DNA of 64,000 bases from Patescibacteria group bacterium (lineage in GTDB: Bacteria; Omnitrophota; Gorgyraeia; Gygaellales; Profunditerraquicolaceae): assembly GCA_035506195.1 (NCBI GenBank), contig DATJPV010000041.1, positions 112-64,111 of the forward strand, given 5' to 3'. Under the pieces are notes generated by a model. It searched no databases and was not told the DNA's origin. It was given only the letters and a program-made list of their open reading frames with translations. The position numbers and the translations under genes are program-made. Below are positions 16,613 to 31,972 of this stretch, in pieces (within the stretch, counting starts at the first letter, position 1; the number at the start of each line of letters is the position of its first letter).

Positions 16613-19021
16613 TTACGTATGCGGGATCGGTTTATGATACCACTCCTTGATGACTTCCTGTGCGGGTTTGTTTTGCGGCGTATATCCGCGGTTGAACTCA
16701 CCACCCATATTCGTATGCGTCCCCCAATACCACCAGTATAACCCGTAAAACCACGGCTTATTCCAGAATAGCTCCAGCATTACCTCGTAACAGTCTTTCT
16801 GCAACTGAAGCTCAACCTGCTTGCCTGGCTGCGCCACCCAGGGCTGATCCGTGGTAGCGGTAGAACTCTTGTATCCGATCTCGGCGAAAATGATCGGCTT
16901 CTTGACCTTGGCCTGCCAGTCCTCCAACAGGTTCTCCCATACCTTCCAGGCGGTCTTTATTTCTTCTCGGGAGGGCCTGTCCTTCTCGATCAACGGGAAA
17001 TAGGGGTCCACGCCTGCGTAATCCAAAAGATCCCAGAACTCTATCCGATAATATTCATCGTACCAGTTCGCCGCATACGTCAGCCGGCCGGGATAGGTTG
17101 CGCGGACCTCTTTGATCAATTGGCGCCAGCGGTTCGGTTGAGTAAGCGCAGAGCGCGTCAACTCGGTGCCTATGCAAAATAGCTCAACCCCTTGTTCCGC
17201 AGCCATCTGTGCATAATGCAGAATGAAGGCCTGGTAGTTTTTAAACCAGGTTTCCCATTCCTGGTCAGAGTTGAATTCGATCTCTCCCCGCCAGCGGCCG
17301 TCTGACTGGTCGACCAAATCGAGGTGAGGCTTAAGCATGATCTTCATCCCCAGCTCATGGGCTTTTTGTATTGCGTGGACAAGGCCTTCATCGGTGGGCG
17401 TCTTGCCGTTGGAATGCATAGCAGTAGAATTGTATTGCTCTTGATACCAGGTAGGGCTAAAAGAAACCCACTCTACGCCCAGAGGTTTCAAGAGGCCCAA
17501 TGATTCGTCCGAAGAGGCATTTTTAAAGCTGTCTTTGTTCCAGGTTAAATAGCACATCCCTTTCTGCCAGGCCGGATACGGAACGTCTTTTATATTCGCC
17601 GCCGGCACAACGGTTTTTGCGGCAACAGGAGTAGCCTCCGGCGTCGCCACGGGAACGCTGGCCTTTGCTGATGCAAGAAGGATGTTTCCGGGTTCTGGTG
17701 TCGCAGAGGGTGCGGCGGCCGAACCTGTGGACACAGGAACGGGAACAATCGGAACGGGCGGCGTCTCGGCTTTTGCAGCAGGAGCAGGGGCAGGAGCGGC
17801 TACGGGAGACTCTGCGGTAGAAGACTCGGGAGCAGATGCGGCAACAGCTTCGGCAATCGGAGCTGCAGGCGGAGCAATCGCTGCTTCCTTCTTACTCAAT
17901 CCTTCCTTTAAAACCCGCAGGTAATAGGCTTTTTCTATGCCGGGATCGGGCTTGCTGTACCATTTAGTCAATATTTCTTCAGCGGGTTTCCCCCGAGGCG
18001 AAAATCCTCGCGTCATAGAAAGGCGAGGATTGATCGAAACCTGCCAATACCACCAATAGATACCCCAAACCCATTTCTTATAATAGAATGTTTCCAGAAA
18101 AGCGCGGTAACAATTAGCCTGGGTCTGAAGACTAAGCGGCCCCTGAGGGGCATGTTCCCAGGGGCTGTCTGCTGCGCTTTCCGAACTCTTGTACCCGATC
18201 TCCGCAAAAATAACAGGCTTTTTTAGCTTATCCTGCCATTCTTCTAATTGTTTCACCCACGGCTGCCAGGCCTTTTTAAGCTCTTCGACGCTGGGCGTCT
18301 TGGCTTCCGTTAAAGGAAAATACGGATCAACTCCGGCGTAATCCAAGAGGTCCCAGAAAGCGATTTTCTGATATTCTTCGTGCCAGTTTGCCGCGTACGT
18401 CAAGTGCCCCTTATACATGCCCCTGACTTGCGCAATCAACTGGCGCCACTGCTCCGGATGGTTAAGCGTACTTGAAGCCAACTCCGTGCCCAGGCAGATC
18501 ATCTCGACGTTCTCGGCGTTGGCAATCTCTACATAATGCAGGATGAAATCACGGTATTGATTAAACCAATTCTGCCAATCCTGCGGATCAGTGAAGTCGA
18601 TCTCTCCGCGCCACTTGCCCCCGGAAATCTCCAGGAGATCCACGTGGGGCTTGAGCATCACCTTAAAACCCAGATCATGGATCCTGCGGATGGCATGCGC
18701 AAGGCTATTGTCGCTGGGGGTCCGATGAGTAGCTTTTATCTGGGGGGTATTATAGGAATCCTGGTACCAGGTCACGACAAGGGCGACCCATTCGGCCTTG
18801 GTCCTGGCCAATTCTTTCAGGGAGTCATCAGAGGCAAACGTAGCATAGCCCTCCTTGGTCCAATCGGCGTAAATCATGCCTTTCTGAAAAGCCGGGAAAT
18901 TCGTCGATTGGTTTTTTTGTTTTAAACCGATCTGCTTAAGGGCTATTGCCGAACCGACTAACATAAGCGCGGCAAGGACAAAAAATACTCCCCGGGGAAG
19001 CTTGCGATATGAAAAAGGCAT
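16613..19021 (-). CDS. Secreted protein with two tandem clan GH-A (beta/alpha)8 glycoside hydrolase domains (GH5/GH26/GH113-like, likely beta-mannanase/glucanase)
   Basis: A signal anchor is present. Two catalytic domains of about 330 aa are roughly 50% identical to each other. Each has a GTEL acid/base-like motif and an (F/A)EIGY nucleophile-like motif. They are joined by a Pro/Ala-rich linker (APPAAPIAEAVAASAPESSTAESPVAAPAPAPAAKAETPPVPIVPVP). Confidence 0.7.
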   Translation of the reverse strand: MPFSYRKLPRGVFFVLAALMLVGSAIALKQIGLKQKNQSTNFPAFQKGMIYADWTKEGYATFASDDSLKELARTKAEWVALVVTWYQDSYNTPQIKATHRTPSDNSLAHAIRRIHDLGFKVMLKPHVDLLEISGGKWRGEIDFTDPQDWQNWFNQYRDFILHYVEIANAENVEMICLGTELASSTLNHPEQWRQLIAQVRGMYKGHLTYAANWHEEYQKIAFWDLLDYAGVDPYFPLTEAKTPSVEELKKAWQPWVKQLEEWQDKLKKPVIFAEIGYKSSESAADSPWEHAPQGPLSLQTQANCYRAFLETFYYKKWVWGIYWWYWQVSINPRLSMTRGFSPRGKPAEEILTKWYSKPDPGIEKAYYLRVLKEGLSKKEAAIAPPAAPIAEAVAASAPESSTAESPVAAPAPAPAAKAETPPVPIVPVPVSTGSAAAPSATPEPGNILLASAKASVPVATPEATPVAAKTVVPAANIKDVPYPAWQKGMCYLTWNKDSFKNASSDESLGLLKPLGVEWVSFSPTWYQEQYNSTAMHSNGKTPTDEGLVHAIQKAHELGMKIMLKPHLDLVDQSDGRWRGEIEFNSDQEWETWFKNYQAFILHYAQMAAEQGVELFCIGTELTRSALTQPNRWRQLIKEVRATYPGRLTYAANWYDEYYRIEFWDLLDYAGVDPYFPLIEKDRPSREEIKTAWKVWENLLEDWQAKVKKPIIFAEIGYKSSTATTDQPWVAQPGKQVELQLQKDCYEVMLELFWNKPWFYGLYWWYWGTHTNMGGEFNRGYTPQNKPAQEVIKEWYHKPIPHT

Positions 19022-19031
19022 ACGTATCTCC

Positions 19032-19625
19032 TTATTCTATAAGCCGCACATTGTCTATATAAATCGAGCCTTTATAAGCGGGCTTCATGTTCGACTCGAT
19101 ACGAACTCCCAATTTTCTGATATCCTGACGGAAGGCATCGGTTACTGCGGGATGACGCCAATCGGTACTGCCGGGTTTCAAGTGCGCGGCTATAGTCGTC
19201 CATTTGCCCGGCTCCAAGGCAAAGCCCCTGGACATCTCCGTCCACTCCCAGCCTTCGCCGACAGTAAGGATCAATTTAGCCTTCAGACCCGCCGGCGCAT
19301 CAGGCGGCAAAAACACCTCTACGGCAACCTGCGCATAAGGCGTCCAATCAAAATACTCGACAATCTCCATATACGCGCCTGTCCATTTGCCTCCGGGAAA
19401 ATCAACCTTGAATTCCAAAGAGGATTTACCTTCCACGGCGTATTTCTGGCTCAACGCAAGGCTGTCACCCACGTAATCTTCTTTTTCCATGGCCCAATCC
19501 GGGATCTCCCAACCCTGGGTGTCCTGCTCAAAGCCTGCCAACAGTTTTTCTGCGGCCAGGACTGCCGTCCGGCTCAGGCAAGCTATCAGGCATGCACCGA
19601 TGAGTACGCATACTATTTTTTTCAT
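19032..19625 (-). CDS. Small secreted protein, possibly a carbohydrate-binding module
   Basis: It has a signal peptide (MKKIVCVLIGACLIACLS) and is 198 aa, beta-rich and Trp-rich. The start ATG at 19623-19625 follows GAGGTG. The ORF-track version that extends to 19799 overlaps the upstream gene and is unlikely. Confidence 0.5.
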   Translation of the reverse strand: MKKIVCVLIGACLIACLSRTAVLAAEKLLAGFEQDTQGWEIPDWAMEKEDYVGDSLALSQKYAVEGKSSLEFKVDFPGGKWTGAYMEIVEYFDWTPYAQVAVEVFLPPDAPAGLKAKLILTVGEGWEWTEMSRGFALEPGKWTTIAAHLKPGSTDWRHPAVTDAFRQDIRKLGVRIESNMKPAYKGSIYIDNVRLIE

Positions 19626-19633
19626 ACGCACCT

Positions 19634-21349
19634 CTACTTGATCTTGTTCGTATACCAGTCGCTCAACAGGCCCTCCGCGATCTTGCCGCGAATGATAAAA
19701 CCGGTCGGATTGAACCTTTCCTGCGGGAAATACTGCCACCAATACATGCCCTTGAACCAGGTTTTGCCGACCAGGGCTTCGACCATGGCCTGAAGGCAAT
19801 CCGCCTGTTCCTGTTCATCTATCTTGACATCCGGTCCGGAGCGCGGCTTCCAGGGTTCAAGATTGGTGCCTTCGGCACTGCTATAACCTATTTCGGTAAA
19901 CACTACGGGCTTTTGCAACGATTCTTTAGCAAGCCACGTTTCGATCTTTGCCCCGATAGCACCCCAAGAATGAGTAAGCTGCTGGAGCGTCGGCTCTTTG
20001 GTTGAGGTCAGCGGAAAATATGCGTCGATGCCGATAAAATCAAGCTGCTTCCAGAATGACACATAATAATATTCGTTCCAGTTGGCCCCGTAAATAAGCG
20101 GCCCCTTATACTGCTCCTTTATCTTACCGATGATCCTGTCCCATTTGGCGGCATATCCGCCGATGGTAGCATTGGCCAGTTCCGTTCCGATGCAATATAA
20201 TTCTACGTTATAGGTGGCGGCGAACTTTGCGTATTGCACGATAAAATTCTCGTAACTGGCGAACCAATCGTCGCTGGGGTTGATGTCCCCGCGCCAGGCG
20301 CCGTCCTTGGTATCCACATGGGGCTTAAGCATTACCTTCATGCCTAATCGGTGGCAGGTATTAATCGCGTGCGCCAGCGCCTCGTCCGTGGGCGTATCTT
20401 TCTGGGTATCCGCATAGATGACTTTCGAATCGATAGTATCCTGGAACCAGGGGACCATGATGGCGATGCTCCTGACCCCCTTGGCATAGAGGTATGCCAA
20501 CGTCTTGTCGGAGGCGGCCTCTCCGAGTTCGGTGCGACCCCAGGACGTATACACGACCCCTTTCTGGAACTCTTCTACGGTCATCACTCCTAAGCCCGAT
20601 AAAGGCTCCTCCATGGTCGTACCGAGAGGCTGCTTCAGCTCTTCGGTGAAGGTCTTATGACCCGGCAAGGCCTCTTCGATAGGCCTATCATCAGGGTTAA
20701 GGTTTTTGGGGCCGTAAAATTCTACTTCCCACATGGAAATTCCCCATTCCGGATTCGCTCTTTTAAGGCCGAGTATCTTGACGTAGCGGGTAGCGACGGG
20801 CTCCAGGGGAATCTCGGCAGTGCCGCCGGACTGATCTTTGAGCACTTTCAGGCTCTGCCAGTTTTGCCCGTCATCAGAAGCAAGGATTTCATAGTCAACT
20901 GCATAACCGCGTTCCCATAATATTTTGATAAGAGTGACGGTCTTTTTCTCGCCGAAATCAAAAGATATCCATTGATTGTCTATGCCTAGCTTAGAGGCCC
21001 AGCGCGTATTCAGGTCTCCGTCCAGGGGTGCCATAGCATTTTGCGGCGGCGCCCAGTCAGGGGTATCGTCAAAAGAAGATGTCGTTACTGCCTGAACCTT
21101 CAAATAAACCAGGTCGCTGGGAGTCTGCGTTGTCGGTTCTGGAGCTGCCTGCGACTCTACCGCTCGTTGCTGGCCTGCCGGCTCCCTGGCTGCTTGCGGT
21201 TGTGTCGTTTGTTGTTGGTCTAGCGGTGCTTGAGTTTTCTGCGTTTCGGTTGTCTGTTGCTGCGCTGCCTGTTCCTGAGCCGCACGAGTGCAGCTGGCCG
21301 ACATAAGTACCAAAAACGCCAGTAACCAAATCCTTTGTTTTTTCAACAT
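19634..21349 (-). CDS. Secreted F5/8 type C (discoidin/CBM32-like) domain plus clan GH-A glycoside hydrolase domain, a paralog of the 16613..19021 domains
   Basis: A signal peptide is followed by a Gln/Thr-rich low-complexity linker and a discoidin-like block (NTRWASKLGIDNQWISFDFGEKKTVTLIKILWERGYAVDYEIL). The catalytic domain carries CIGTELA and VFTEIGY motifs. Confidence 0.7.
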   Translation of the reverse strand: MLKKQRIWLLAFLVLMSASCTRAAQEQAAQQQTTETQKTQAPLDQQQTTQPQAAREPAGQQRAVESQAAPEPTTQTPSDLVYLKVQAVTTSSFDDTPDWAPPQNAMAPLDGDLNTRWASKLGIDNQWISFDFGEKKTVTLIKILWERGYAVDYEILASDDGQNWQSLKVLKDQSGGTAEIPLEPVATRYVKILGLKRANPEWGISMWEVEFYGPKNLNPDDRPIEEALPGHKTFTEELKQPLGTTMEEPLSGLGVMTVEEFQKGVVYTSWGRTELGEAASDKTLAYLYAKGVRSIAIMVPWFQDTIDSKVIYADTQKDTPTDEALAHAINTCHRLGMKVMLKPHVDTKDGAWRGDINPSDDWFASYENFIVQYAKFAATYNVELYCIGTELANATIGGYAAKWDRIIGKIKEQYKGPLIYGANWNEYYYVSFWKQLDFIGIDAYFPLTSTKEPTLQQLTHSWGAIGAKIETWLAKESLQKPVVFTEIGYSSAEGTNLEPWKPRSGPDVKIDEQEQADCLQAMVEALVGKTWFKGMYWWQYFPQERFNPTGFIIRGKIAEGLLSDWYTNKIK

Positions 21350-21412: not shown

Positions 21413-21507
21413 GACCCGAAATTTGGCCTTCTCTGTCTGTACAGGTTCATTAATTATAGCAAAACGCTCTTAAAAAGTCAAGTCGGATAACTTATCTGGC
21501 AGACCCG

Positions 21508-24294
21508 TCAAACCGGCGTAAAAATATCCAAAAGCTGCGCCTGGGTATCGGACAATACCGAAAAACTCCCCGAAGAAGCCGGAACCAAAAGCATCTCTGA
21601 GCCGGCCTTAGCCTCGGGAATAGGAAATTTCTTGCCTGCGATAACCAGGTGTGCCCGGCCCTTTATAATTACCAGCATATGGCAACTCTTCACGTTCTCA
21701 TTCAAATATTTTTCATTCGCAGGGATCGTGATCCGGTTAACCTGCATACCCTTTGCCTCAAAGCCGCCCGGCAATCTCTCGACCGATACGCCCCCCCGGG
21801 TATCGACAAGCTGGCTATCCCCCGGAGTCCATTTTTTTGTGCATATTTCGCCTATCCTGTCCAAATCCAGCTTCTTCTTTCCTGACGCAACGGGATAATC
21901 CGGGAAAAAATACCTGACCGGATATGTCGCGCCATCCTCCAAGGACTGTGTCGGGCCGGGTATCTGGGGTTCAACTATGGTAATGCCCGGGCCTAAGGCA
22001 TGCAGCGTGCCCTGAGGCACCGGGATAACATCCCCGATATCCACGGGTACGTGGTGGTAAAAACCGTCCAACGCCTGTTGCGCTTTTAGAAATACTTTCA
22101 ATTTGCCGCTGACGGCTTCATCTTTCCTCTTTAAGCCCTCTGCCGCCTCGACAACATTTCCTGCTTCTTCCAATTCTTTTTCGAAACCGCTTTTTTCAAG
22201 ATATGCGATAAGCTCATTTAAAAGTTTTCCATAATTTCTCAATGCCTTTTCATATTCTTCTTTTATGCGTTCTCCGTATGCGTCAATCAACGAAGGACTG
22301 AATCCGCAAATAAGGGAGGGGTGCGAGCCTGCCGTTTCTTTATGTATCCCCGTAACCACCCATAGCTCATTCTTCTTATCATGAAATTGAACCGATAGGC
22401 GCCCCTTAGGGGTCAATATCTTTACCAGCGGAAGGAATGTGCCGAATTTCTCGATAACTGATTCGCCTAAAAGATCGACGCCTGCATCGGCAAGCAATTG
22501 ATCCATCGGGATCAAGCCTTCCCGAATAACTCCCAGCGAACTTTTCTCTCCGGCCTCGGCTCCGTACCAATATTCGCCGATACCTCCAACTCCCCATACC
22601 TTCTTTTCTTTATAAGGCTTTATGTATAAAGGGGTCCCGGCCTTTACTAAATCTATCAGAGAAACGATCTCAACCAGTTTCGGGATTACCTTCGCAAGGC
22701 CTATCCGGACCATATCCCTGGTTCGCTCCTGCGAATCCGCAATGGCATAATTCCTGAATTCCGGCGCATTGCCGGAAGGCCTCAGGTGCGAGATCTCGCC
22801 GTTATCGAAGAATATTCTTATGCCGTCTGTATAATTTACATCCGCGACTTTTCCAAAACCATCGTCATGCAAAAATACTTTTTCTATTCTCTTTTTTATT
22901 TTTCCCAGTTCTTTTGCGTCGTTAAGATCTCCGGGGGTTAGATAATCGATTATGGCCCTGCTCGTTCCCATAGGAAACTCTTTTTCTCTATCTGCGTGCG
23001 TGAACCTTGAGGGAAGCGTCTTTATCAGTTCCGAAACGTTCTTTCCGCTTTTTGCGATCAAATGTATAACGCTTACAAGAGGAAGCACCGCATCTCTGGT
23101 GGGCAGCGCTTTAAGGGTTTTACCTGCGATGGCAAGGTCGGTTCCTGTCAGAAATCCGCCGTTTGATTCCCATGCAAACACATTCCATTCACCTGCATGG
23201 CTGCCGATAGAATCATTCATTGCCGCAATGACAAAAGGGGACCCTATCTTGGTCAAGGTCAATACGATGCCTTTATTCCTGCAGACCTTGGCGATAGCAT
23301 CATTGGCGCTTACGGGCACGCAGACGGCATCTACCCGGACATGTAAATTCTGTAAACCCAATATGGCAAGCAACCCCAGGATATCGCCGGATATATATGT
23401 AACATTGTCCGTCGGCTTGCCGTTTTCGTATTCCCGGTAAACCAGGAGCGGCCTATCCGAATCACCGTCTAATGTTATCCCGATATCAAGGTTATTATCT
23501 ACGAGGACCTTCTTAAAGATACCCAAGGTCTTATCGGAAACGCTTTCGGTATCGACCGGGACAAACTCGCTACTTCTTAAGGGCTCGTTGTGTATCCGGA
23601 TGTCGGGAGCAAAGACCTCCGCGCCTAAGCCTTCAAAAATGTCTCTTACTATATCCCTGCCTACGGCAGAGTGCTGGTAGAGAAATATCTTTGTCCCTTT
23701 CGGAAAAAAAACGTTGCCGAACACGCTTCTATACCTATCTATATAGAACTGACAGGACTCGCCTGTATAGCACTCATCCTTTAAGAGCCCCTGATACTTA
23801 GACTCAAACGCTGCCTTAAAAGTTCCCTTATTGTCGAAGACCGATCCTTCTTGTGCAGCAGAATAGACTTTCAGCCTCTCTTTTCTGACGTTTTCCAGGA
23901 TGCCCGACTCATCCGATTTTAATATCTCTCCCGAGCGCTTGGTAAACTTTATGCCGTTCCTATCCGCCGGTATATGGCTGCCGGTAACCATAATGCTGGC
24001 CATCGCATTGCACATGGCATAATAAGCCAGGGCCGGGCTGGGGACCTGGCCCTGGTCGCTTACCTTGCCCCCCATATCGGCAATAGCGGCAGCAACAGAC
24101 CTTTTTATCCTATACGTGCTGGGCCTCCTGTCTCCACCTATGGCGACGGTATCGCCCTTCTTGAATTCTCCGGAATCCTGGAGATATGCGATAAAACCCC
24201 TTGCATTGATATAGCATTCCATATCGGTCATATGTTCGACCGTGTCTCTCAATCCGCTCGTGCCGAATTTCAATTCGTTGACTTTCGCATTCAT
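21508..24294 (-). CDS. Bifunctional fusion of a phosphomannomutase/phosphoglucomutase (alpha-D-phosphohexomutase) domain with a C-terminal type I mannose-6-phosphate isomerase (cupin) domain
   Basis: The N-terminal roughly 560 aa carry the phosphohexomutase active-site loop (FGTSGLRD near the start, GGDRRPS). The C-terminal roughly 370 aa form a PMI-type cupin with QFHDKKNELW...H metal ligands. The start was set at MNAKVNELKFGTSGLR. The ATG at 24318 is an alternative. Confidence 0.75.
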   Translation of the reverse strand: MNAKVNELKFGTSGLRDTVEHMTDMECYINARGFIAYLQDSGEFKKGDTVAIGGDRRPSTYRIKRSVAAAIADMGGKVSDQGQVPSPALAYYAMCNAMASIMVTGSHIPADRNGIKFTKRSGEILKSDESGILENVRKERLKVYSAAQEGSVFDNKGTFKAAFESKYQGLLKDECYTGESCQFYIDRYRSVFGNVFFPKGTKIFLYQHSAVGRDIVRDIFEGLGAEVFAPDIRIHNEPLRSSEFVPVDTESVSDKTLGIFKKVLVDNNLDIGITLDGDSDRPLLVYREYENGKPTDNVTYISGDILGLLAILGLQNLHVRVDAVCVPVSANDAIAKVCRNKGIVLTLTKIGSPFVIAAMNDSIGSHAGEWNVFAWESNGGFLTGTDLAIAGKTLKALPTRDAVLPLVSVIHLIAKSGKNVSELIKTLPSRFTHADREKEFPMGTSRAIIDYLTPGDLNDAKELGKIKKRIEKVFLHDDGFGKVADVNYTDGIRIFFDNGEISHLRPSGNAPEFRNYAIADSQERTRDMVRIGLAKVIPKLVEIVSLIDLVKAGTPLYIKPYKEKKVWGVGGIGEYWYGAEAGEKSSLGVIREGLIPMDQLLADAGVDLLGESVIEKFGTFLPLVKILTPKGRLSVQFHDKKNELWVVTGIHKETAGSHPSLICGFSPSLIDAYGERIKEEYEKALRNYGKLLNELIAYLEKSGFEKELEEAGNVVEAAEGLKRKDEAVSGKLKVFLKAQQALDGFYHHVPVDIGDVIPVPQGTLHALGPGITIVEPQIPGPTQSLEDGATYPVRYFFPDYPVASGKKKLDLDRIGEICTKKWTPGDSQLVDTRGGVSVERLPGGFEAKGMQVNRITIPANEKYLNENVKSCHMLVIIKGRAHLVIAGKKFPIPEAKAGSEMLLVPASSGSFSVLSDTQAQLLDIFTPV

Positions 24295-24383
24295 CTCCGC
24301 AGCCCTACAGCTATACACGCATGGAATTCAAACATTGGAACATTATATCAGATTTGTTTGTAAAACCCAAAGGCGAAAAAAAC

Positions 24384-24414
24384 TTGTACCGCACACCTTA
24401 AAAAGGTGTACAAT
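24384..24414 (+). promoter_or_regulatory. Candidate sigma70-type promoter for the PfkB kinase gene, overlapping an inverted repeat
   Basis: TTGTAC (24384-24389) and TACAAT (24409-24414) are separated by 19 bp. The GTG start at 24469 lies 55 nt downstream with AAGGAG at 24455-24460. The flanking sequence GTACCGCACACC ... GGTGTACAATGGTAC forms an imperfect inverted repeat. Confidence 0.3.
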
Positions 24415-24468: not shown

Positions 24469-25755
24469 GTGGACATCGAAGGCGTAGTATCAAAGAATCT
24501 TGGCATACGCAAGCTTACGGGGCCTGCGTTGAGAGAAGCCGTAGCGTATCATAATAACCGCCTTCCCGATGCTGCGAAGAGGCGCATAAACCGTGAAATC
24601 GCCCATTGCGTCATAAAAGCCGTAAGGGCCGCAAGGGGCAAGAAAAAATACGAAGGCATGGGGAAAATGGAGTCTTTGCCGGGCACTAAAGTACTGGCGA
24701 TCAATCATGCCGGCCCCCTTGATGTGACGATCGAATGGAAAACCCAAGCCGACGGTACCCTCAAACCTGCAGGATGCCACCTAGATTCAGGAGGAGACCA
24801 GATCAACGTGTCAAAGGTATTCAGCCACTTTAAGGAACCCATTGCGCTGGTGGCGCTCGCAGGAAAAGAAGGAGAAGAAATTACGGATGAATGGGAAAGG
24901 AATTTTTTGAACCCCGGCATAATCCCCGCGCTGATCCGCACCACCCAAGAAGACCAGCAGGTGGAAGTGTATAACATGATTGACGGCGATACGCTTCCCG
25001 GAATGCACGGATGGGCGGATGAGCTATCGTCACACACAGTAGAGCGCATCAACCGGGAAGCCTTGGCAATGCTTGAGCAGATGCGCAGAAACGGATCCGG
25101 CAACATCTGGATGGTCCTTTCGGCGGGAGGGCCCGTGCGGTATAACGCGGATCTTGCCTATTATGCAACGCTCGTAAAACAAGTAAAAAAAGAATACCGG
25201 GACAAGGTGAAATTACTGATCGATTTCAAGTCCATGTCCGACCCCCAAGAGGCCATGTCGGTTTTGGACATCCCCAGGCGCAAGCCGCAGGACATAATCA
25301 AACCGAACCTGGAAGAATTCATCCAAGTCTTGATCTCAAGCGGTTTGGCGCAAACGGGTAAAATAAACAGGGATACGCTGACCGAAGAGTCTGTTAAAAC
25401 GCACGCGATTGCGTTGAGAAAAAAATTTAATCTTCTAGGGGTGCTTGTTTCGATGGATAAATCCGGATTGATCATGGTTACGCAAGACCGGATCATCAAA
25501 GAAAAGGGCATCAAGATACGGCAGGCATGTCACACCGCCGCCGGAGACTCGCTCAAGGCGGGAGTCCTTTACGCGCTTTCTAACGGAAAGTCGTTTGAAG
25601 AGGCCGTGCACACCGGGAATCTCTTTGGGGCTTCAACGGCTTCTATGGAAGGCTCTCAAACTGTCACGCCCCGGAGGTTTACGAAAATAAAGACCTTGGC
25701 GCGCACGCAACGCGTCAAGCCGCAAGTCGAATATGTAGCAAGCGCAAAACGGTAA
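24469..25755 (+). CDS. PfkB family carbohydrate kinase (FruK/LacC-like subfamily)
   Basis: The ribokinase fold shows NHAGPLDVT near the N-terminus and the anion-hole/catalytic motif HTAAGDSLKAG (DTxGAGD-like) near the C-terminus. The GTG start at 24469 has a good Shine-Dalgarno. Shorter starts at 24658 or 24667 are possible. Confidence 0.7.
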   Translation: MDIEGVVSKNLGIRKLTGPALREAVAYHNNRLPDAAKRRINREIAHCVIKAVRAARGKKKYEGMGKMESLPGTKVLAINHAGPLDVTIEWKTQADGTLKPAGCHLDSGGDQINVSKVFSHFKEPIALVALAGKEGEEITDEWERNFLNPGIIPALIRTTQEDQQVEVYNMIDGDTLPGMHGWADELSSHTVERINREALAMLEQMRRNGSGNIWMVLSAGGPVRYNADLAYYATLVKQVKKEYRDKVKLLIDFKSMSDPQEAMSVLDIPRRKPQDIIKPNLEEFIQVLISSGLAQTGKINRDTLTEESVKTHAIALRKKFNLLGVLVSMDKSGLIMVTQDRIIKEKGIKIRQACHTAAGDSLKAGVLYALSNGKSFEEAVHTGNLFGASTASMEGSQTVTPRRFTKIKTLARTQRVKPQVEYVASAKR

Positions 25756-25756
25756 C

Positions 25757-27211
25757 TTACACCGTACCCCTGCGCGCTTCGAGGCTCCTGCGGATCTCTT
25801 CGATCTTTTGTCTTGTCAAGGGTACGCGCAAAACAAAAATGATCGCGACGATCAGGCCCAGGACGGGCAACGAAGCCAGGCTGAAACGGATCCAGAAGAT
25901 GGTCTCGGGTGCCTGCACCTTGAGCTTCCAGGTAAATCCCGCCCAGGTCAGAATAAGGCCGGAAAAATAGTACCCGAAGGAATTCCCCAGCTTAAGAATA
26001 TAGGAAGCGCAGGCAGTAAAAGAACCTTCCCTTCTCTTCCCTGTTTTGAGCTCATCGTAATCGATGATATCGGCGCCGATAGAGCTATGCAGCATCCACA
26101 GAGACGCCGCGGCCATCCCCATTAAACCCGAAGAGATCGTCTGCAGCCAGATAACCGCCGGCGTATACAAGAACCAGGAGCCGGCATAGCCACAGATGCC
26201 TACGATACAGGCCACCACTGCCGCCTCGCGTTTTCCGATCCGGTGCGACAGAGACGCATGCACAGGAACGCCGATAAGGCCGCCGAGCATAAAGGCCACG
26301 CCCATCCAAAACTGCCAGTTATCTCCGATGATCTTGTCGCCGCCGGCTACGTAAAAAACCGTGGCATAGTAACCGAGGGAACCTACCATGCTCGTGCCTA
26401 AGGTAAAAGCGCCGCCCATGACCATCATCTGGCGGAACGGGTGGCAGCGGAGAGTCTCGCCCAGGCCGCTCAAAACGGAGATCTTCTCTTTAACCTTTAC
26501 CACCACTTTTTCGTAGTAACGTTCTTTGACCCTGAAGAAAATGATGACGGCAAAAATAGCCATGACCACGCCCAATATCGCGGTGTAGACCTGCATCCCC
26601 AAAAGGGTATTCTTCTGCCCTGTCCCCGGGATAAGAAACCAGGCCAGGTTGGTAAAACGCAGGGCATAGAAATTGCCCAGCTCAGAGATCTTTTGGGCTA
26701 CGCTGCGATAAGACATGATCGAGGTGCGCTCCTCATAATCGGGAGACATCTCCGCGCCCAAGCTGTAATACGGCACGGTGAAGGCGCTGACTATGGGCAT
26801 ATACACCATGGTGGATAATAACATATACCAGAATACCGCAGAGACCCCGAGGAATTTTATCTCCGCCCAAGAAGGCGATATTAAAAATAGGACCGGCAGA
26901 CACAGCCCGCTGATAATGCCGGCAATCAGAATAAAAGGCCTGCGGCGGCCGTGCCTGGAGCGCAAATTATCGGAAAACCACCCCATTAAGGGATCGGCAA
27001 AGGCATCCCAGACTCGGATCAGGGTAAGCGCCAAACCCACTAGCCAGGGTTGAACCCCCAAGTACAGGTTAAAGACCGCGAACGCAACGGACGGGTATAA
27101 CCAGAGTCCCCACATATCAACGGCCGTACCGAGGCTATAGGCCGCTTTGGTTGAAATCGGAAGACGATCCCGCTGGAGCTTCTTTCCACTAACAACATTA
27201 GCTTCTTGCAT
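25757..27211 (-). CDS. Glycoside-pentoside-hexuronide (GPH):cation symporter family sugar transporter (MFS)
   Basis: The GPH signature D-x-x-x-DP-x-x-G-x-x-SD-x-x-R-S-R-x-G-R-R-R-P is present as VWDAFADPLMGWFSDNLRSRHGRRRP. About 12 TM helices. The start ATG at 27209-27211 follows GGAAGGAG. Confidence 0.85.
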   Translation of the reverse strand: MQEANVVSGKKLQRDRLPISTKAAYSLGTAVDMWGLWLYPSVAFAVFNLYLGVQPWLVGLALTLIRVWDAFADPLMGWFSDNLRSRHGRRRPFILIAGIISGLCLPVLFLISPSWAEIKFLGVSAVFWYMLLSTMVYMPIVSAFTVPYYSLGAEMSPDYEERTSIMSYRSVAQKISELGNFYALRFTNLAWFLIPGTGQKNTLLGMQVYTAILGVVMAIFAVIIFFRVKERYYEKVVVKVKEKISVLSGLGETLRCHPFRQMMVMGGAFTLGTSMVGSLGYYATVFYVAGGDKIIGDNWQFWMGVAFMLGGLIGVPVHASLSHRIGKREAAVVACIVGICGYAGSWFLYTPAVIWLQTISSGLMGMAAASLWMLHSSIGADIIDYDELKTGKRREGSFTACASYILKLGNSFGYYFSGLILTWAGFTWKLKVQAPETIFWIRFSLASLPVLGLIVAIIFVLRVPLTRQKIEEIRRSLEARRGTV

Positions 27212-27279
27212 TGTGCTTTCTCCTTCCGCAGTGGCGGACACCAGCCTATCCGATAAGGCTGGGTGTAACAAATAACAAA

Positions 27280-28221
27280 TTACCGATTATAACAGGCGTC
27301 GATAAGCCGCTCTACGCTCGTAGTGGCCACGCATTGAACCGTATCAGCGCCGCCGTAATACAGTTTGATCTCGCCGTCATCTTCCACCACGGCCCCGCAG
27401 GTAAACACGACGCTGGGGGTCTGTCCTACGAGCTCATATTGCTCCTCGGGAATCAAGATCGCATCTTCGCTCATTGCCTTGACTTTTGACGGGTCGTTTA
27501 GGTCCAGGAGGCAAACGCCTAATTGATACACAAAATGCGCCCGGCATTGCGTACGCACTCCGTGAAAAATGGTCAACCATCCTTCGGGTGTCCTGATGGG
27601 GGTGGCCCCCGGCCCGATCTTTACCCAGGCCCAACGGATTCCCTCCCAGTTCCTGAATACGCATTTACTCTTCCCCCAAAAGACCAGGTCCGGAGAATAG
27701 GAAACCCAAATATCCCCGGTATCGGATCCGGTATTGGGCCGGTCAAGGCGCGCATACAATCCGTTGATCTTTTCCGGGAAAAGCACCCCATTACGGTTAT
27801 CGGTTTCGGAAATGAACCCCATCCATTGGAATTTCTTAAAGTCCTCGGTCTTGACCAGGCTTAAACGGCAGGTATGGCCGGAGTGCGCGGCATGAACAAT
27901 ATAATAGGCGTCGCCTACCTTGGTTACGCGCGGATCGTAGTACATACCGCAGGTATACTCCTTGAACTCCGGATCGTCATGGGGCAAATCTATGGGCTTG
28001 GAGCGCGGCTTAAAGTGGTAACCGTCCGCGCTCTCCGCGATCCAGAAACGGTCAAGCAAAGCGGAATTCTCCACCCGGCAGACCATTGTATAGACGTCGT
28101 TGCATTTCACGATGCCGGAGTTGAATACATTTTTGATATCGGCCTCGGCGGGAAAATCCTTGCCCGTCAGAATGGGATTTTTCTCATACCGCTTGCATAT
28201 GGGGTATTTGTTTGCTTTCAT
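27280..28221 (-). CDS. GH130 family beta-mannoside phosphorylase (for example 4-O-beta-D-mannosyl-D-glucose or beta-1,4-mannooligosaccharide phosphorylase)
   Basis: Five-bladed beta-propeller motifs are present: YEKNPILTG near the N-terminus, VFNSGIV, YYIVHAAHSG, FPEKINGLYARLDRP, KIGPGATPIRTPEGWL. The start ATG at 28219-28221 follows AAGGAGAGGG. Confidence 0.85.
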   Translation of the reverse strand: MKANKYPICKRYEKNPILTGKDFPAEADIKNVFNSGIVKCNDVYTMVCRVENSALLDRFWIAESADGYHFKPRSKPIDLPHDDPEFKEYTCGMYYDPRVTKVGDAYYIVHAAHSGHTCRLSLVKTEDFKKFQWMGFISETDNRNGVLFPEKINGLYARLDRPNTGSDTGDIWVSYSPDLVFWGKSKCVFRNWEGIRWAWVKIGPGATPIRTPEGWLTIFHGVRTQCRAHFVYQLGVCLLDLNDPSKVKAMSEDAILIPEEQYELVGQTPSVVFTCGAVVEDDGEIKLYYGGADTVQCVATTSVERLIDACYNR

Positions 28222-28255
28222 GTCCGATTCCCTCTCCTTGTGTGCGCTGCTGTTG

Positions 28256-29035
28256 TTAAGCAATATCCAACCACTCCGTATTGGCTCTGTTCCATTCTAA
28301 GATCGGATGCCCTCTGCCCTCAAAGTATGCCCGGACTCTTTCCTGGTCGTAGTCTAAGAGGTCCTCAAAAATAGGGACTAATAAAGAAAGGACGTTATCG
28401 GATATGACGCTTCTGCGGCAGATGTGCCCCATATAAGGCGACGGAGAAACGGTTATCGTATAACCATCGTAAGACATGACGTGCAGCATGACATGGACAT
28501 CGCTTGAGCCGTCTCCGATATAGATTATGGCGTTCCGGGGGACATTTTCCTTTTCCTTTAACATATCCAGGGTGGCTACCTTGGCATGGCCGGCATTGGT
28601 CCTTTCCACATCCTGGACGACGTTATCTTTATACATAAATGTGGTGCCGTAGACGTTCTCGACGGGCAGAATCTGCCCTACCGCTTTCTCAACGCACTCC
28701 TTAGGCGCCGCAGAGAGTATATACGTACTGAAACGGTAATTGTCGATCCCCTCGGACAGGATCTTCATCAGGTCGGTAACCCCTTTTTTGAGCTCGACCT
28801 CCTGTCCTACTTCGTAGAGAAGATCCTTGGTTACCTTGCCGGCATAATCGGGGTCCCTGGCTATCAAATGCGCAAGCTCCCCTCCGAGCTGTACGATATT
28901 CCTGCGTTTTATCTCTTCGATCTTTTGGTCGAACTGCTTCGCAGACACTCCCAGCTTTGCGCTTAGTATGTACCCGATATCCCCCACGGAAAGGGTCTTG
29001 TCGAAATCAGAAACAAAGAGAAATTTTTTCTTCAT
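28256..29035 (-). CDS. HAD superfamily hydrolase (phosphatase), subfamily IB-like
   Basis: Motif I is FVSDFDKTL (DxDxT) and motif IV is IYIGDGSSD. A GGAAGGAG Shine-Dalgarno is present. Confidence 0.7.
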   Translation of the reverse strand: MKKKFLFVSDFDKTLSVGDIGYILSAKLGVSAKQFDQKIEEIKRRNIVQLGGELAHLIARDPDYAGKVTKDLLYEVGQEVELKKGVTDLMKILSEGIDNYRFSTYILSAAPKECVEKAVGQILPVENVYGTTFMYKDNVVQDVERTNAGHAKVATLDMLKEKENVPRNAIIYIGDGSSDVHVMLHVMSYDGYTITVSPSPYMGHICRRSVISDNVLSLLVPIFEDLLDYDQERVRAYFEGRGHPILEWNRANTEWLDIA

Positions 29036-29067: not shown

Positions 29068-29874
29068 CTACATTTCATATTTCAAGGCGTAACTTTTTAA
29101 CATCTGTACCGCCTTGGGGATATACACCAGTTCATCCTGTTTGTGCATATCCTGGCCTTCAAACTCCAAAGAAAAGAAACCCCGGTAATCGTGCTTTTTC
29201 AATATCTTGAATATCTTATCGTAATCAAACTCCAATTCACGGCACTCATCGGTTATGTGATGGCACTTGGCATGGATATGCGGGGCATAGGCTATGGTGT
29301 CTTCAATAGCCTTGTAGATATCCGGGTCATGGTAATTGCCGGTGTCCAAGTTGATCTTGACCCACTCGGAGTTTATTTCCTTTATCAGCCTTAAGGTATC
29401 CACCGCGGTCGGCAGGAAGCCTCCCGCATTATGCGGTTCGATTGCCAGAACAATACCGGCTTCTCTTGCCGGGCCTTCGCATTCCTTTATGCATTTGACC
29501 ATTTCCGGCCAGAGCCTGTCTTTATCCTCAGGCGGCTGGGGCCATCCGGAAAATATCCTTAACACCGGCGCACCTAAGATATAACCCACATCCAGCCATT
29601 TCTTAATCGCCTCTACCTCCTGTTTTCTTTCCCCGGAGCCGGCTTTACCGAAATTGTTCCCCGGGGATAAACAGGCGATACTCAAATGCAGGTCGACAGC
29701 CATCTTCTTGTATCCGATCAGGCTTTTTTTGTCGGTCTTGGGCAAGTGATCAGCGATAATATCTACGCCGCCCAACCGGAGGTCGCGAGCGCAGAATGTA
29801 AGCAGCTTAACGAAATCAAGCCTGCCCGATTCTAAGGATTTATGAGCTGACCAGGTACATAGCCCTAACTTCAC
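29068..29874 (-). CDS. Sugar phosphate isomerase/epimerase (xylose isomerase-like TIM barrel)
   Basis: 268 aa. It matches the AP endonuclease 2 / Xyl_isom-like TIM barrel pattern (MKLGLCTWS..., metal-binding E/D/H positions). Confidence 0.75.
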   Translation of the reverse strand: MKLGLCTWSAHKSLESGRLDFVKLLTFCARDLRLGGVDIIADHLPKTDKKSLIGYKKMAVDLHLSIACLSPGNNFGKAGSGERKQEVEAIKKWLDVGYILGAPVLRIFSGWPQPPEDKDRLWPEMVKCIKECEGPAREAGIVLAIEPHNAGGFLPTAVDTLRLIKEINSEWVKINLDTGNYHDPDIYKAIEDTIAYAPHIHAKCHHITDECRELEFDYDKIFKILKKHDYRGFFSLEFEGQDMHKQDELVYIPKAVQMLKSYALKYEM

Positions 29875-29889
29875 GGCAATCCTCCTGCC

Positions 29890-30927: not shown

Positions 30928-30945
30928 TGCGTATTCCTCCTTTAC

Positions 30946-31971: not shown

Positions 31972-31972
31972 G

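What the first reader, a model, noticed from the sequence alone, without database searches (positions are those of the whole stretch)
21508..24294. Phosphomannomutase/phosphoglucomutase fused to mannose-6-phosphate isomerase
The characterised bifunctional mannose enzymes are PMI-GMP (ManC type). Here a full alpha-D-phosphohexomutase is fused N-terminal to a type I PMI cupin. The locus has a GH130 phosphorylase that releases alpha-Man-1-P and a GH94 phosphorylase that releases Glc-1-P. In that context this single protein could convert Man-1-P to Man-6-P to Fru-6-P, and Glc-1-P to Glc-6-P, channelling phosphorolysis products straight into glycolysis.
Basis: partly seen in the sequence, partly recalled or inferred. 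Interest (0 to 1): 0.65.

Follow-up and report, generated by a model that had tools for sequence, protein, structure and literature searches.

The report
Phosphomannomutase fused to divergent phosphomannose isomerase
One gene in a bacterial (Omnitrophota-like) mannan-degradation locus joins two consecutive sugar-phosphate enzymes (mannose-1-P to mannose-6-P mutase, then mannose-6-P to fructose-6-P isomerase) into one protein; the fusion is real, recent and uncharacterised, but it is built from known enzyme families doing their expected jobs.

Summary
Observation confirmed. Window 21508-24294 (minus strand) is an uninterrupted 928-aa ORF. Residues 1-545 are a complete alpha-D-phosphohexomutase with all four signature loops. 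Residues 546-928 are a very divergent type I phosphomannose isomerase. They fall below the Pfam and NCBIfam cut-offs, but the AlphaFold model (pLDDT 94) matches only type I PMIs at the top of the PDB, and the Gln/His/Glu/His metal ligands are invariant in the family.

The fusion is genuine. The closest relatives (66-84% identity) have two abutting genes. In the window the PMI start ATG has become CTG, the ribosome-binding site is gone, and a one-residue allele in a separate JGI dataset has the same junction. It is an independent, recent fusion inside an unfused clade. In 49 species-representative genomes, 17 have PMM-PMI fused and 20 have them adjacent.

The locus is a beta-mannan/glucomannan utilisation cluster: two GH113 mannanases, a mannan-binding protein, GH130_2-like and cellobiose-phosphorylase-like GH94 phosphorylases, an MFS_2 importer and a PfkB kinase. 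Activity, direction and channelling are untested. Relatives often also fuse a putative NDP-sugar pyrophosphorylase, so an anabolic or amphibolic role remains a rival. No paper describing this fusion was found.

Verdict: new variant of a known kind, moderate interest.

The parts
21508..24294 (-). Whole fused gene, 928 aa plus stop codon (an alternative GTG start at 24318 would give 936 aa)
   Evidence: Identical protein HTY45746.1 and a one-residue JGI allele P0375, both 928 aa.
22660..24294 (-). Alpha-D-phosphohexomutase (PMM or PMM/PGM) module, residues 1-545
   Evidence: Pfam PGM_PMM I-IV. 4HJH phosphomannomutase, E 3e-65, aligned over residues 5-533. 70-84% identical to stand-alone ~545-aa mutases.
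23968..23985 (-). Catalytic phosphoserine loop T-G-S106-H-I-P
   Evidence: Identical to the 4HJH motif IMVTGSHIPxDRNG.
23452..23469 (-). Mg2+-binding loop D276-G-D278-S-D280-R
   Evidence: Aligned to DGDADR of 4HJH.
23155..23172 (-). Sugar-binding loop W-E376-S-N-G-G
   Evidence: Aligned to FEANGG of 4HJH.
22753..22782 (-). Phosphate-binding loop R505-P-S-G-N-A-P-E-F-R514 (domain 4)
   Evidence: Aligned to RASGNAPELR of 4HJH.
22642..22680 (-). Fusion junction K-L-V-E-I-V-S | L546-I-D-L-V-K. The L546 codon (22657-22659) is CTG where relatives have the PMI start ATG. The mutase tail is shortened and the stop codon and RBS are lost.
   Evidence: DNA and protein alignment with L004, L006 and L008. 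The AF2 model places residues 540-551 in one helix.
21511..22659 (-). Divergent type I phosphomannose isomerase module, residues 546-928 (catalytic cupin, helical insert, C-terminal beta-sandwich)
   Evidence: 66-72% identical to stand-alone ~385-aa proteins.
22360..22395 (-). Metal-ligand/catalytic motif S-V-Q636-F-H638-D-K-K641-N-E643-L-W
   Evidence: Q and H aligned to ManA Q97 and H99. K-x-E-L matches ManA K132-P-E134-L. All invariant in A1.
21964..22011 (-). Second catalytic stretch G-T-L-H765-A-L-G-P-G-I-T-I-V-E775-P-Q
   Evidence: Motif match to ManA ETPH255AYLQGVALE264. H, E, P and Q invariant in A1.
27280..28263 (-). GH130 phosphorylase (GH130_2-like), predicted source of alpha-Man-1-P
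   Evidence: Pfam 6.6e-54. PDB hits TM1225 9e-59, UhgbMP 1.5e-54, RaMP2 beta-1,4-mannooligosaccharide phosphorylase 2.6e-47.
25757..27271 (-). MFS_2 (GPH-type) sugar importer
   Evidence: Pfam 2.6e-67. Conserved GH130-MFS-PMM order in relatives.
24469..25755 (+). PfkB-family kinase (1-PFK/hexose-kinase subgroup, below cut-off), divergently transcribed
   Evidence: A PfkB gene is also next to the PMI gene in L004 and L006.
19634..21349 (-). GH113 beta-mannanase with F5/8-type C domain and lipoprotein-like signal sequence, immediately downstream
   Evidence: Sequence. Homologues are conserved downstream of PMM/PMI in 26 of 49 loci.
19032..19799 (-). Mannan-binding (Mann_GBD_bact) protein
16613..19021 (-). 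Second GH113 protein (802 aa)
   Evidence: E 8.4e-127.
14229..16577 (-). GH94 cellobiose-phosphorylase-like enzyme, predicted source of alpha-Glc-1-P
   Evidence: Pfam 1.3e-145. 3QDE cellobiose phosphorylase 9.5e-242 over the full length.
28256..29035 (-). HAD-IB family phosphatase, conserved upstream of GH130 in relatives

Best explanation
The gene encodes a genuine cytoplasmic two-enzyme protein. The N-terminal alpha-D-phosphohexomutase moves the phosphate between C1 and C6 of mannose (probably also glucose) through a phosphoserine (S106)/Mg2+ mechanism with a hexose-1,6-bisphosphate intermediate. The C-terminal metal-dependent type I phosphomannose isomerase interconverts mannose-6-P and fructose-6-P.

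In this locus the most likely flow is catabolic:
1. Secreted GH113 mannanases cut beta-mannan or glucomannan.
2. An MFS_2 symporter imports the oligosaccharides.
3. GH130 releases Man-1-P and GH94 releases Glc-1-P.
4. The fusion protein takes Man-1-P to Man-6-P to Fru-6-P (and possibly Glc-1-P to Glc-6-P).
5. The adjacent PfkB kinase may phosphorylate the product or the released free hexose.

The fusion arose recently from two abutting genes. The mutase lost its short tail and stop codon, and the isomerase lost its ATG (now CTG) and ribosome-binding site.

Shown: the architecture, active-site motifs, fold, genuineness of the fusion and gene context. Inferred: both activities, sugar specificity, net direction, and any kinetic advantage. 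The fusion guarantees 1:1 stoichiometry and co-localisation, but channelling is not demonstrated.
For: Architecture and motifs.

PMI fold and ligands.

Fusion genuine:
- Junction alignment shows ATG to CTG and loss of the RBS.
- An independent JGI allele (927/928 identical) has the same junction.
- Full-length fused homologues at 44-48% identity come from many metagenomes.
- 17 of 49 species-representative loci are fused.

Recent independent event: the window's PMI module nests among unfused L006, L008, L009 and L010.

Catabolic context:
- GH113 x2, GH94, PfkB, MFS_2, GH130 and HAD in the window.
- Nearest relatives have a co-directional HAD-GH130-MFS_2-PMM-PMI operon.
- Distant relatives place PMM/PMI in an operon with ABC sugar permeases, GH113, mannan-binding proteins, ROK, a solute-binding protein and GH130.
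- Other fusion partners are a phosphofructokinase (P0254) and a PfkB kinase (P0249), consistent with Fru-6-P as product.

The same pathway, with separate PMM/PGM and PMI, was demonstrated biochemically in Roseburia intestinalis (PMC6385246).
Against: - No biochemical data exist for any member of this mutase clade or of this PMI-like family.
- The PMI module is only 13-17% identical to characterised PMIs and fails the curated Pfam and NCBIfam cut-offs.
- Only two of the four metal ligands are placed by a statistically supported alignment.
- Both reactions are freely reversible.
- In many relatives the core is fused to a putative NDP-sugar pyrophosphorylase (Y), i.e. the ManA/ManB/ManC biosynthetic set.
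- The window also carries a GT2 gene and a glycosyltransferase-rich giant ORF that could consume activated mannose.
- In the window, GH130 and MFS_2 are separated from the fusion gene by an oppositely oriented PfkB gene, so co-transcription with the phosphorylase is not given here.
Confidence: 0.65

Rival explanations
1. Same two activities, but the main physiological direction is anabolic or amphibolic: Fru-6-P to Man-6-P to Man-1-P, feeding an NDP-mannose pyrophosphorylase and glycosyltransferases (cell-surface glycans). Mannan-derived Man-1-P could also be diverted directly to NDP-mannose.
For: - In relatives the PMM-PMI core is frequently fused to protein Y (Y-PMM-PMI about 1500 aa, Y-PMM about 1170 aa, Y-PMI 924 aa).
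- Y's confident model (pLDDT 86, pTM 0.90) matches GDP-fucose pyrophosphorylase (7e-11), ADP-glucose pyrophosphorylases, a Man-1-P guanylyltransferase and RmlA. It has an invariant GxGxRxxP-type motif.
- The window has a GT2 gene in the same gene string and a >9857-aa ORF with GT1/GT4 domains.
- PMM and PMI are reversible (established enzymology).
Against: - The window encodes no Y or X homologue.
- In every locus examined the genes sit among import, mannanase, mannan-binding and phosphorylase genes, not O-antigen or capsule-type clusters.
- Fusion partners also include PFK and PfkB kinases, which point toward glycolysis.
Confidence: 0.2
2. The C-terminal module is not a mannose-6-P isomerase. 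It would be a PMI-fold protein with another role: a different sugar-phosphate aldose-ketose isomerase or epimerase (for example acting on Glc-6-P or another hexose-P), or a sugar-phosphate-sensing regulatory domain. Alternatively or additionally, the mutase is specific for glucose or another hexose rather than mannose.
For: - It scores below the curated cut-offs for all PMI models.
- It is only 13-17% identical to solved PMIs.
- The family is small and isolated: 30 representatives at E<=1e-30 among 1.84 billion.
- The loop between the QxH motif and the Glu ligand is far shorter than in ManA.
- No curated equivalog assigns the mutase's specificity; the best is Arch_GlmM at 149 vs 439 bits.
Against: - Metal ligands and the Lys/Glu/Arg positions mutated in Salmonella ManA studies have invariant counterparts.
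- The only significant fold and profile matches are PMIs.
- It is persistently adjacent or fused to a mutase in mannan loci next to a Man-1-P-releasing GH130.
- The closest solved mutase is deposited as a phosphomannomutase.
Confidence: 0.1
3. The single ORF is an artefact. Two adjacent genes, as in the nearest relatives, were merged by a sequencing or assembly indel, or the locus is a decaying pseudogene pair.
For: - The nearest relatives have separate, abutting or overlapping genes in different frames, so one small indel could merge them.
- The contig is from a metagenome assembly.
- The exact junction DNA was not found in the searchable metagenome collection.
Against: - The PMI start codon is CTG rather than ATG, the RBS is absent and there is no alternative start before M597, so a split version would leave the isomerase untranslatable.
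- A JGI/IMG protein from another dataset, differing at one residue (S666N), has the identical junction.
- The sequence is recorded by NCBI, Logan and ENA.
- All catalytic motifs in both halves are intact.
- Fusion of these two genes occurred repeatedly elsewhere.
Confidence: 0.03

Closest known systems
Roseburia intestinalis mannan-utilisation enzymes RiPgm (PMM/PGM) and RiGH1_D2 (PMI), acting after RiGH130_2 (La Rosa et al. 2019, PMC6385246)
   Same: Same proposed pathway logic and locus type: GH113, GH130 phosphorylase, LacI-type regulator, mutase converting Man-1-P (and Glc-1-P), then a PMI giving Fru-6-P.
   Different: There the mutase and isomerase are separate proteins and the PMI is fused to an inactive GH1-like domain. 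Here mutase and PMI are one chain, uptake is by MFS_2 rather than ABC, and no mannobiose 2-epimerase was seen among the annotated ORFs.
Type I phosphomannose isomerases: Salmonella/E. coli ManA (2WFP, 3H1M), B. subtilis 1QWR, Candida albicans 1PMI, A. fulgidus 1ZX5
   Same: Same three-part fold (Foldseek E 1e-16 to 1e-18, TM 0.55-0.71). Same Q-x-H ... K-x-E ... H metal-ligand and catalytic pattern.
   Different: Only 13-17% identity. Below the Pfam and TIGRFAM cut-offs. The 28-residue ManA loop between H99 and E134 is reduced to 4 residues. The helical insert is long (about residues 667-745). It is a separate small family centred on Omnitrophota.
Brucella melitensis phosphomannomutase 4HJH and the alpha-D-phosphohexomutase superfamily (e.g. 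P. aeruginosa PMM/PGM 1K35)
   Same: Four-domain architecture, TGSHIPxDRNG phosphoserine loop, DGDxDR metal loop, E-x-N-G-G sugar loop, R-x-SGNAPE-x-R phosphate loop.
   Different: About 65 extra residues of insertions relative to 4HJH, and a C-terminal tail replaced by the PMI module. No curated equivalog is reached, so specificity is unassigned.
Bifunctional type II PMI-GMP enzymes (AlgA, XanB, ManC type; from general knowledge, not tested here beyond Pfam)
   Same: A natural two-activity enzyme of mannose-phosphate metabolism that contains a cupin PMI domain.
   Different: Type II enzymes join a nucleotidyltransferase to a small C-terminal cupin and catalyse non-consecutive steps 1 and 3. 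Here there is no NTP-transferase domain, PF01050 scores only E 0.045, the cupin is type I, and the two steps are consecutive.
Omnitrophota multi-enzyme long or giant proteins (bioRxiv 10.64898/2026.06.07.730766; bioRxiv 10.1101/2023.11.21.568195)
   Same: Same phylum-level habit of fusing sugar-metabolism enzymes. PGM/PMM Pfam domains are listed among their 'sugar metabolism' module. Relatives of this protein of 2000-3900 aa contain the same PMM-PMI core.
   Different: Neither paper turned up any mention of PMI or a PMM-PMI pair in the term searches run here (the PMI module escapes Pfam thresholds). The window protein is a minimal soluble two-module version.

Membership tests
Alpha-D-phosphohexomutase superfamily (PGM/PMM) | Four-domain architecture (Pfam PGM_PMM_I, II, III, IV) | tested here: met
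   Domains I, II and III are above the gathering scores. Domain IV scores 20.6 vs 23.1 bits but is aligned through domain 4 to 4HJH.
Alpha-D-phosphohexomutase superfamily (PGM/PMM) | Catalytic phosphoserine loop T-x-S-H-x-P | tested here: met
   T104-G-S106-H-I-P109, identical to 4HJH.
Alpha-D-phosphohexomutase superfamily (PGM/PMM) | Metal-binding loop D-x-D-x-D-R, sugar-binding loop with Glu, and phosphate-binding loop R-x-S-G-x-x-P in domain 4 | tested here: met
   D276-G-D-S-D-R, W-E376-S-N-G-G, and R505-P-S-G-N-A-P-E-F-R514.
Alpha-D-phosphohexomutase superfamily (PGM/PMM) | Man-1-P/Man-6-P (and Glc-1-P/Glc-6-P) mutase activity | not testable with these tools
   No NCBIfam equivalog cut-off is reached. 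Specificity is inferred from context and from the depositors' name for 4HJH.
Type I phosphomannose isomerase (PF20511 / TIGR00218 manA) | Score above the curated HMM cut-offs | tested here: not met
   PF20511: 17.8 vs 22 bits. TIGR00218: 31.2 vs 116.2 bits. PRK15131: 16 vs 571 bits. About half of the homologues do reach PF20511 in precomputed annotation, and PGAP names some of them 'type I phosphomannose isomerase catalytic subunit'.
Type I phosphomannose isomerase (PF20511 / TIGR00218 manA) | Type I PMI fold (catalytic cupin + helical domain + C-terminal beta-sandwich) | tested here: met
   Model pLDDT 94.1. The top 17 PDB hits are all type I PMIs (E 2.5e-18 to 5e-16), with the next hits at about 5e-9.
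Type I phosphomannose isomerase (PF20511 / TIGR00218 manA) | Zn ligands Gln, His, Glu, His (ManA Q97, H99, E134, H255) | tested here: met
   Q636 and H638 are placed by hhalign and hmmsearch. E643 and H765 are placed by motif match only. All four are invariant in 48 sequences. The geometry in the model could not be measured.
Type I phosphomannose isomerase (PF20511 / TIGR00218 manA) | Man-6-P to Fru-6-P isomerase activity | not testable with these tools
   Needs an enzyme assay or complementation.
Type II bifunctional PMI-GMP (ManC/AlgA type) | N-terminal nucleotidyltransferase domain plus PF01050 C-terminal cupin | tested here: not met
   No NTP-transferase hit, and PF01050 scores E 0.045, 14.4 vs 23.6 bits.
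GH130-dependent beta-mannan catabolic locus | Co-located mannanase, oligosaccharide importer, GH130 phosphorylase, mutase and PMI | tested here: met
   GH113 x2, Mann_GBD, MFS_2, GH130_2-like and the fusion gene lie within 16.6-28.3 kb of the window. The same set is present in relatives.
GH130-dependent beta-mannan catabolic locus | Mannobiose/cellobiose 2-epimerase partner (for the GH130_1 route) | tested here: not met
   No epimerase family appeared among the ORFs scanned. The GH130 is closer to GH130_2 enzymes, which do not need it.

The most novel reading that the evidence does not exclude
The PMM-PMI pair is the conserved core of a modular 'mannose-phosphate metabolon' peculiar to Omnitrophota. 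The same four partners are found as separate genes, as every pairwise or triple fusion, and as roughly 3000-aa proteins in which the Y-PMM-PMI cassette is nested inside a split X. The partners are an unknown scaffold-like protein X, an unannotated NDP-sugar-pyrophosphorylase-like protein Y, the mutase and the divergent PMI, with PFK or PfkB sometimes added. This would imply a physical complex that partitions mannan-derived Man-1-P between glycolysis and NDP-mannose. The window would then capture the youngest, independently formed minimal fusion, meaning selection for physical coupling (channelling or stoichiometry) is ongoing.
Probability: 0.2. Interest if true: 0.6.

Novelty: new variant of a known kind. 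Interest (0 to 1): 0.4.

Why it matters
Fusions of consecutive pathway enzymes are classic 'Rosetta-stone' evidence. Here the fusion does three things.

- It assigns a function to a small PMI-like family that curated HMMs miss and that is mostly labelled 'hypothetical'.
- It ties an unassigned mutase clade to mannose phosphate metabolism.
- It gives a natural one-polypeptide Man-1-P to Fru-6-P converter, which could be useful in phosphorylase-based cell-free or engineered sugar pathways.

The recurrent fusion and fission (about 8 transitions, 17 of 49 loci fused), plus a datable junction (ATG to CTG, RBS loss), also offers a clean natural system for asking whether fusing sequential enzymes gives a kinetic benefit. 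It does not reveal a new chemistry or a new kind of system.

Tried and rejected
- **hhalign of the family profile to E. coli ManA.** It aligned only the N-terminal catalytic segment (residues 33-106), so E643 and H765 rest on motif matches and invariance.
- **Exact look-ups of the source contig.** Both the 928-aa and 936-aa products returned nothing.
- **Exact scan for the junction DNA in metagenome contigs.** Zero hits.
- **Degenerate junction-peptide scan.** It found only unfused close relatives plus more distant ones, so no second DNA copy of the window-type junction could be read. Independence rests on the protein-level JGI allele.
- **Literature searches for a described PMM-PMI fusion.** Four searches found none.
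- **Sequence-level searches for the unknown partners X and Y** (NCBIfam, PDB phmmer/hmmsearch, Pfam). These gave nothing significant. Only the fold search identified Y. X was not pursued.
- **EPS-biosynthesis reading prompted by GT2 + PilZ.** Considered, then down-weighted once the conserved operon in relatives proved to be import, mannanase, binding-protein and phosphorylase genes.
- **Type II PMI-GMP membership.** Rejected.
- **Promoter/terminator scan.** Counts were at shuffle level, so the individual sites are only noted.


Full report
**1. The observation**

The minus strand of the window carries one uninterrupted ORF from 24318 (GTG) or 24294 (ATG) to the stop codon at 21508-21510. From the ATG it is 928 aa, which is the length both NCBI and JGI call for the identical or near-identical protein.

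Pfam finds phosphoglucomutase/phosphomannomutase domains I-III above threshold and domain IV just below it. The first 533 residues align end to end with the solved Brucella phosphomannomutase 4HJH (E 3e-65).

The four signature loops of the alpha-D-phosphohexomutase superfamily are all present:
- phosphoserine loop T-G-S106-H-I-P
- metal loop D276-G-D-S-D-R
- sugar loop W-E376-S-N-G-G
- phosphate loop R505-PSGNAPEF-R514

**2. The C-terminal module**

Curated HMMs alone do not confirm the PMI. PF20511 scores 17.8 bits against a cut-off of 22, and TIGR00218 scores 31 against 116, although the latter alignment covers residues 572-916. I therefore collected the family. It consists of about 115 close relatives, mostly stand-alone proteins of about 385 aa from Omnitrophota, with some from Scalindua and Desulfobacterales. 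A few of these PGAP already names 'type I phosphomannose isomerase catalytic subunit'.

- A 48-sequence profile hits only type I PMIs in the PDB: Salmonella ManA at 1e-8, and B. subtilis 1QWR, Candida 1PMI and A. fulgidus 1ZX5 at about 1e-4.
- An AlphaFold model built on that alignment is very confident (pLDDT 94.1, pTM 0.90).
- Its first 17 Foldseek hits in the PDB are all type I PMIs (E 2.5e-18 to 5e-16, TM up to 0.71). Generic bicupins follow at about 5e-9.

Profile alignments place K625, Q636 and H638 on ManA K86, Q97 and H99. The motifs K641-N-E643-L-W and G-T-L-H765-A-L-G-P-G...E775 match ManA K132-P-E134-L-V and E-T-P-H255-A-Y-L-Q-G...E264. Every one of these residues is invariant across the 48 sequences.

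The family is nevertheless distinct. It is 13-17% identical to solved PMIs, and its loop between the QxH motif and the Glu ligand is much shorter. Only 30 representatives reach E<=1e-30 among 1.84 billion cluster representatives.

**3. Is the fusion real?**

This needed checking, because the nearest relatives of each half are not fused. The mutase half is 70-84% identical to stand-alone proteins of about 545 aa, and the PMI half is 66-72% identical to stand-alone proteins of about 385 aa. On the relatives' contigs the two genes are adjacent but separate, with a 34-nt overlap, a 9-nt gap or an ATGA overlap.

Aligning the junctions shows what happened in the window:
- The mutase's short variable tail and stop codon are gone.
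- The reading frame continues directly into the isomerase.
- The isomerase's start codon ATG is now CTG (L546, nt 22657-22659).
- The upstream ribosome-binding site is lost.
- There is no alternative start before M597, which would delete conserved N-terminal motifs.

A simple sequencing indel would not explain the ATG to CTG change or the RBS loss. A second protein from JGI/IMG, on a different contig, is 927/928 identical (S666N) with the same junction. I could not retrieve its DNA, and it might come from a related sample, but it is a distinct allele in a separate assembly. I rate the artefact explanation at about 3%.

**4. How common is the fusion?**

Full-length fused homologues of 926-976 aa exist at 44-48% identity in many metagenomes. 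In one genome per species (GTDB representatives), 49 loci encode the PMI-like protein. In 17 it shares a stop-to-stop frame with the mutase, in 20 the mutase is a separate adjacent gene, and in 12 no mutase is adjacent, partly because of contig ends.

On a neighbour-joining tree of the PMI modules, the window sequence nests among unfused sequences (L006, L008, L009, L010). Parsimony needs about 8 fused/separate transitions. The deep branches are star-like, so that number is rough. The independence of the window's fusion is robust.

**5. Context**

The window is a beta-mannan/glucomannan utilisation locus.

| Coordinates | Strand | Feature |
|---|---|---|
| 28256-29035 | - | HAD-IB phosphatase |
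| 27280-28263 | - | GH130 |
| 25757-27271 | - | MFS_2 importer |
| 24469-25755 | + | PfkB kinase |
| 21508-24294 | - | the fusion gene |
| 19634-21349 | - | GH113 with an F5/8 domain and a lipoprotein-like signal sequence |
| 19032-19799 | - | mannan-binding protein |
| 16613-19021 | - | second GH113 |
| 14229-16577 | - | GH94 |
| 13059-14195 | - | GT2 |
| 11613-13055 | - | PilZ-HTH-ROK (Mlc/NagC-like) regulator |
| 8051-9070 | - | LacI regulator |

The GH130 is closest to the GH130_2 enzymes TM1225, UhgbMP and RaMP2, a beta-1,4-mannooligosaccharide phosphorylase. The GH94 aligns over its full length with cellobiose phosphorylase at 1e-241.

The nearest relatives have a co-directional HAD-GH130-MFS_2-PMM-PMI operon with a convergent PfkB gene. 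More distant Omnitrophota place PMM/PMI in an operon with two ABC sugar permeases, GH113+CBM, two mannan-binding proteins, another GH113, ROK, a solute-binding protein and GH130.

The biochemical precedent is Roseburia intestinalis. There GH130 products are converted by a PMM/PGM and a PMI, as separate proteins, into Fru-6-P (PMC6385246).

**6. Mechanism**

The best-supported reading is a bifunctional cytoplasmic enzyme for Man-1-P <-> Man-6-P <-> Fru-6-P, probably also Glc-1-P <-> Glc-6-P. In this locus it would act mainly after phosphorolysis of imported manno-oligosaccharides.

Shown here: the architecture, motifs, fold, junction and gene context. Inferred: both activities, sugar specificity and direction.

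Nothing supports true substrate channelling. The fusion does guarantee equimolar, co-localised enzymes, and the junction lies inside a predicted continuous helix with essentially no linker (the pLDDT there is moderate).

**7. The main rival**

Following the larger relatives gave a complication. Many carry an N-terminal extension of about 555 aa, which is the unknown protein Y encoded just upstream in unfused operons. Y has no Pfam, NCBIfam or PDB sequence match.

Its confident model (pLDDT 86, pTM 0.90) has the nucleotidyltransferase + beta-helix fold. It matches GDP-fucose pyrophosphorylase (7e-11), ADP-glucose pyrophosphorylases, a Man-1-P guanylyltransferase and RmlA. It also has an invariant G-R-G-E-R-x-S-P-F-T motif like the GxGxRxxPLT signature.

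Y-PMM-PMI would then be the complete ManC/ManB/ManA set. The core could therefore also run toward NDP-mannose, or partition Man-1-P between glycolysis and activation. The window has no Y or X, and other fusion partners include PFK and PfkB kinases. I keep the catabolic reading first (0.65) and the anabolic/amphibolic reading second (0.2).

**8. Comparison with known systems, and novelty**

Both modules belong to known superfamilies. The pathway is known and the locus type is known. The known bifunctional mannose enzymes (type II PMI-GMP) have a different architecture, which is not present here.

I found no paper describing a PMM-PMI fusion. A 2026 preprint on Omnitrophota long proteins lists PGM/PMM Pfam domains in multi-enzyme giants but contains no occurrence of 'mannose' or 'fusion', and the term search of the 2023 giant-gene preprint likewise found nothing on a PMM-PMI pairing. 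The PMI module escapes Pfam thresholds, which may be why.

The proteins are already in public databases as 'hypothetical protein' or 'phosphomannomutase'. This is a new variant (domain architecture) of known kinds, not a new kind of system. Interest is moderate at 0.4. It would be raised somewhat if the recurrent X/Y/PMM/PMI fusions turn out to reflect a physical metabolon.

Noticed in passing
window 34427-64000 (-), runs off the window end: A single ORF of more than 9857 codons. Sampled 1000-aa segments contain methyltransferase and GT1/GT4 glycosyltransferase domains. That matches the 'multi-enzyme' class of Omnitrophota giant proteins described in recent preprints.
   Followed up: partly
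relatives: L059:6553-8235, L058:8326-9984; proteins P0376-P0394, alignment A2: Protein Y is a roughly 555-aa Omnitrophota-only family, all annotated hypothetical, with no Pfam, NCBIfam or PDB sequence hit. It is predicted to be an NDP-sugar pyrophosphorylase-like fold (nucleotidyltransferase + beta-helix) with an invariant GxGxRxxP-type motif. It occurs as Y, Y-PMM, Y-PMI (P0243) and Y-PMM-PMI.
   Followed up: yes
relatives: L058:4748-7957 (protein X); giants P0236, P0237, P0239-P0241, P0244-P0246, P0253, P0254: In proteins of 2800-3900 aa, the N-terminal ~680 aa of unknown protein X sit at the N-terminus and its C-terminal ~360 aa sit at the C-terminus. Y-PMM-PMI lies nested in between, which is a domain-insertion-style super-fusion. 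P0238 and P0242 are ...PMM-PMI-X_C. X has no family or structure match by sequence.
   Followed up: partly
relatives P0254 (3927 aa) and P0249 (2019 aa): P0254 adds a phosphofructokinase (PF00365) domain to the X/Y/PMM/PMI chain. P0249 joins the PMI-like module to a PfkB kinase, a carbamoyltransferase and a methyltransferase.
   Followed up: no
window 24469-25755 (+): The PfkB kinase (428 aa) is longer than the ~300-residue PfkB and 1-PFK family profiles and lies in the 1-PFK/hexose-kinase subgroup, below cut-off. Here it sits between the MFS importer and the fusion gene on the opposite strand. In the nearest relatives it lies downstream of the PMI gene, so the locus has been rearranged around the fusion gene.
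   Followed up: partly
window 11613-13055 (-): An unusual regulator architecture: an N-terminal PilZ (c-di-GMP-binding type) domain, a winged-helix HTH and a ROK domain (Mlc/NagC-like). It suggests c-di-GMP input into control of this sugar locus. The relatives' ROK genes are shorter (419-426 aa), and their precomputed annotation lists only the ROK domain.
   Followed up: no
whole window / protein HTY45746.1: The identical protein is deposited under 'Patescibacteria group bacterium'. However, every close relative of the mutase, PMI and MFS genes (up to 84% identity), the synteny and the giant ORF all point to Omnitrophota, so the taxonomic label is probably wrong.
   Followed up: partly
window 24388-24414 (-) and 21453-21481 (-): A 12-bp-stem terminator-like hairpin with a T-run lies about 95 nt upstream of the fusion gene's ATG, with no upstream gene on that strand to terminate. 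It could be a leader or attenuator, or a relic of the rearrangement. A near-consensus promoter (TTGACT-17-TATAAT, extended -10) lies between the fusion gene and the downstream GH113. Overall site counts are at shuffle level.
   Followed up: no
window 29068-33963 (-): Upstream of the HAD/GH130 genes lie a xylose-isomerase-like TIM-barrel protein, two GFO/IDH/MocA oxidoreductases, a LacI-type ligand-binding protein with no LacI HTH hit (293 aa) and a 379-aa ORF with no Pfam hit. This may be a separate sugar-oxidation or isomerisation module.
   Followed up: no
L058:1-4535: The fused relative's contig carries another multi-enzyme giant gene of more than 5918 aa just upstream of X. Its domains include DUF4922, PEP-utilizers_C, DHQ synthase, GT2 and HATPase_c.
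   Followed up: no
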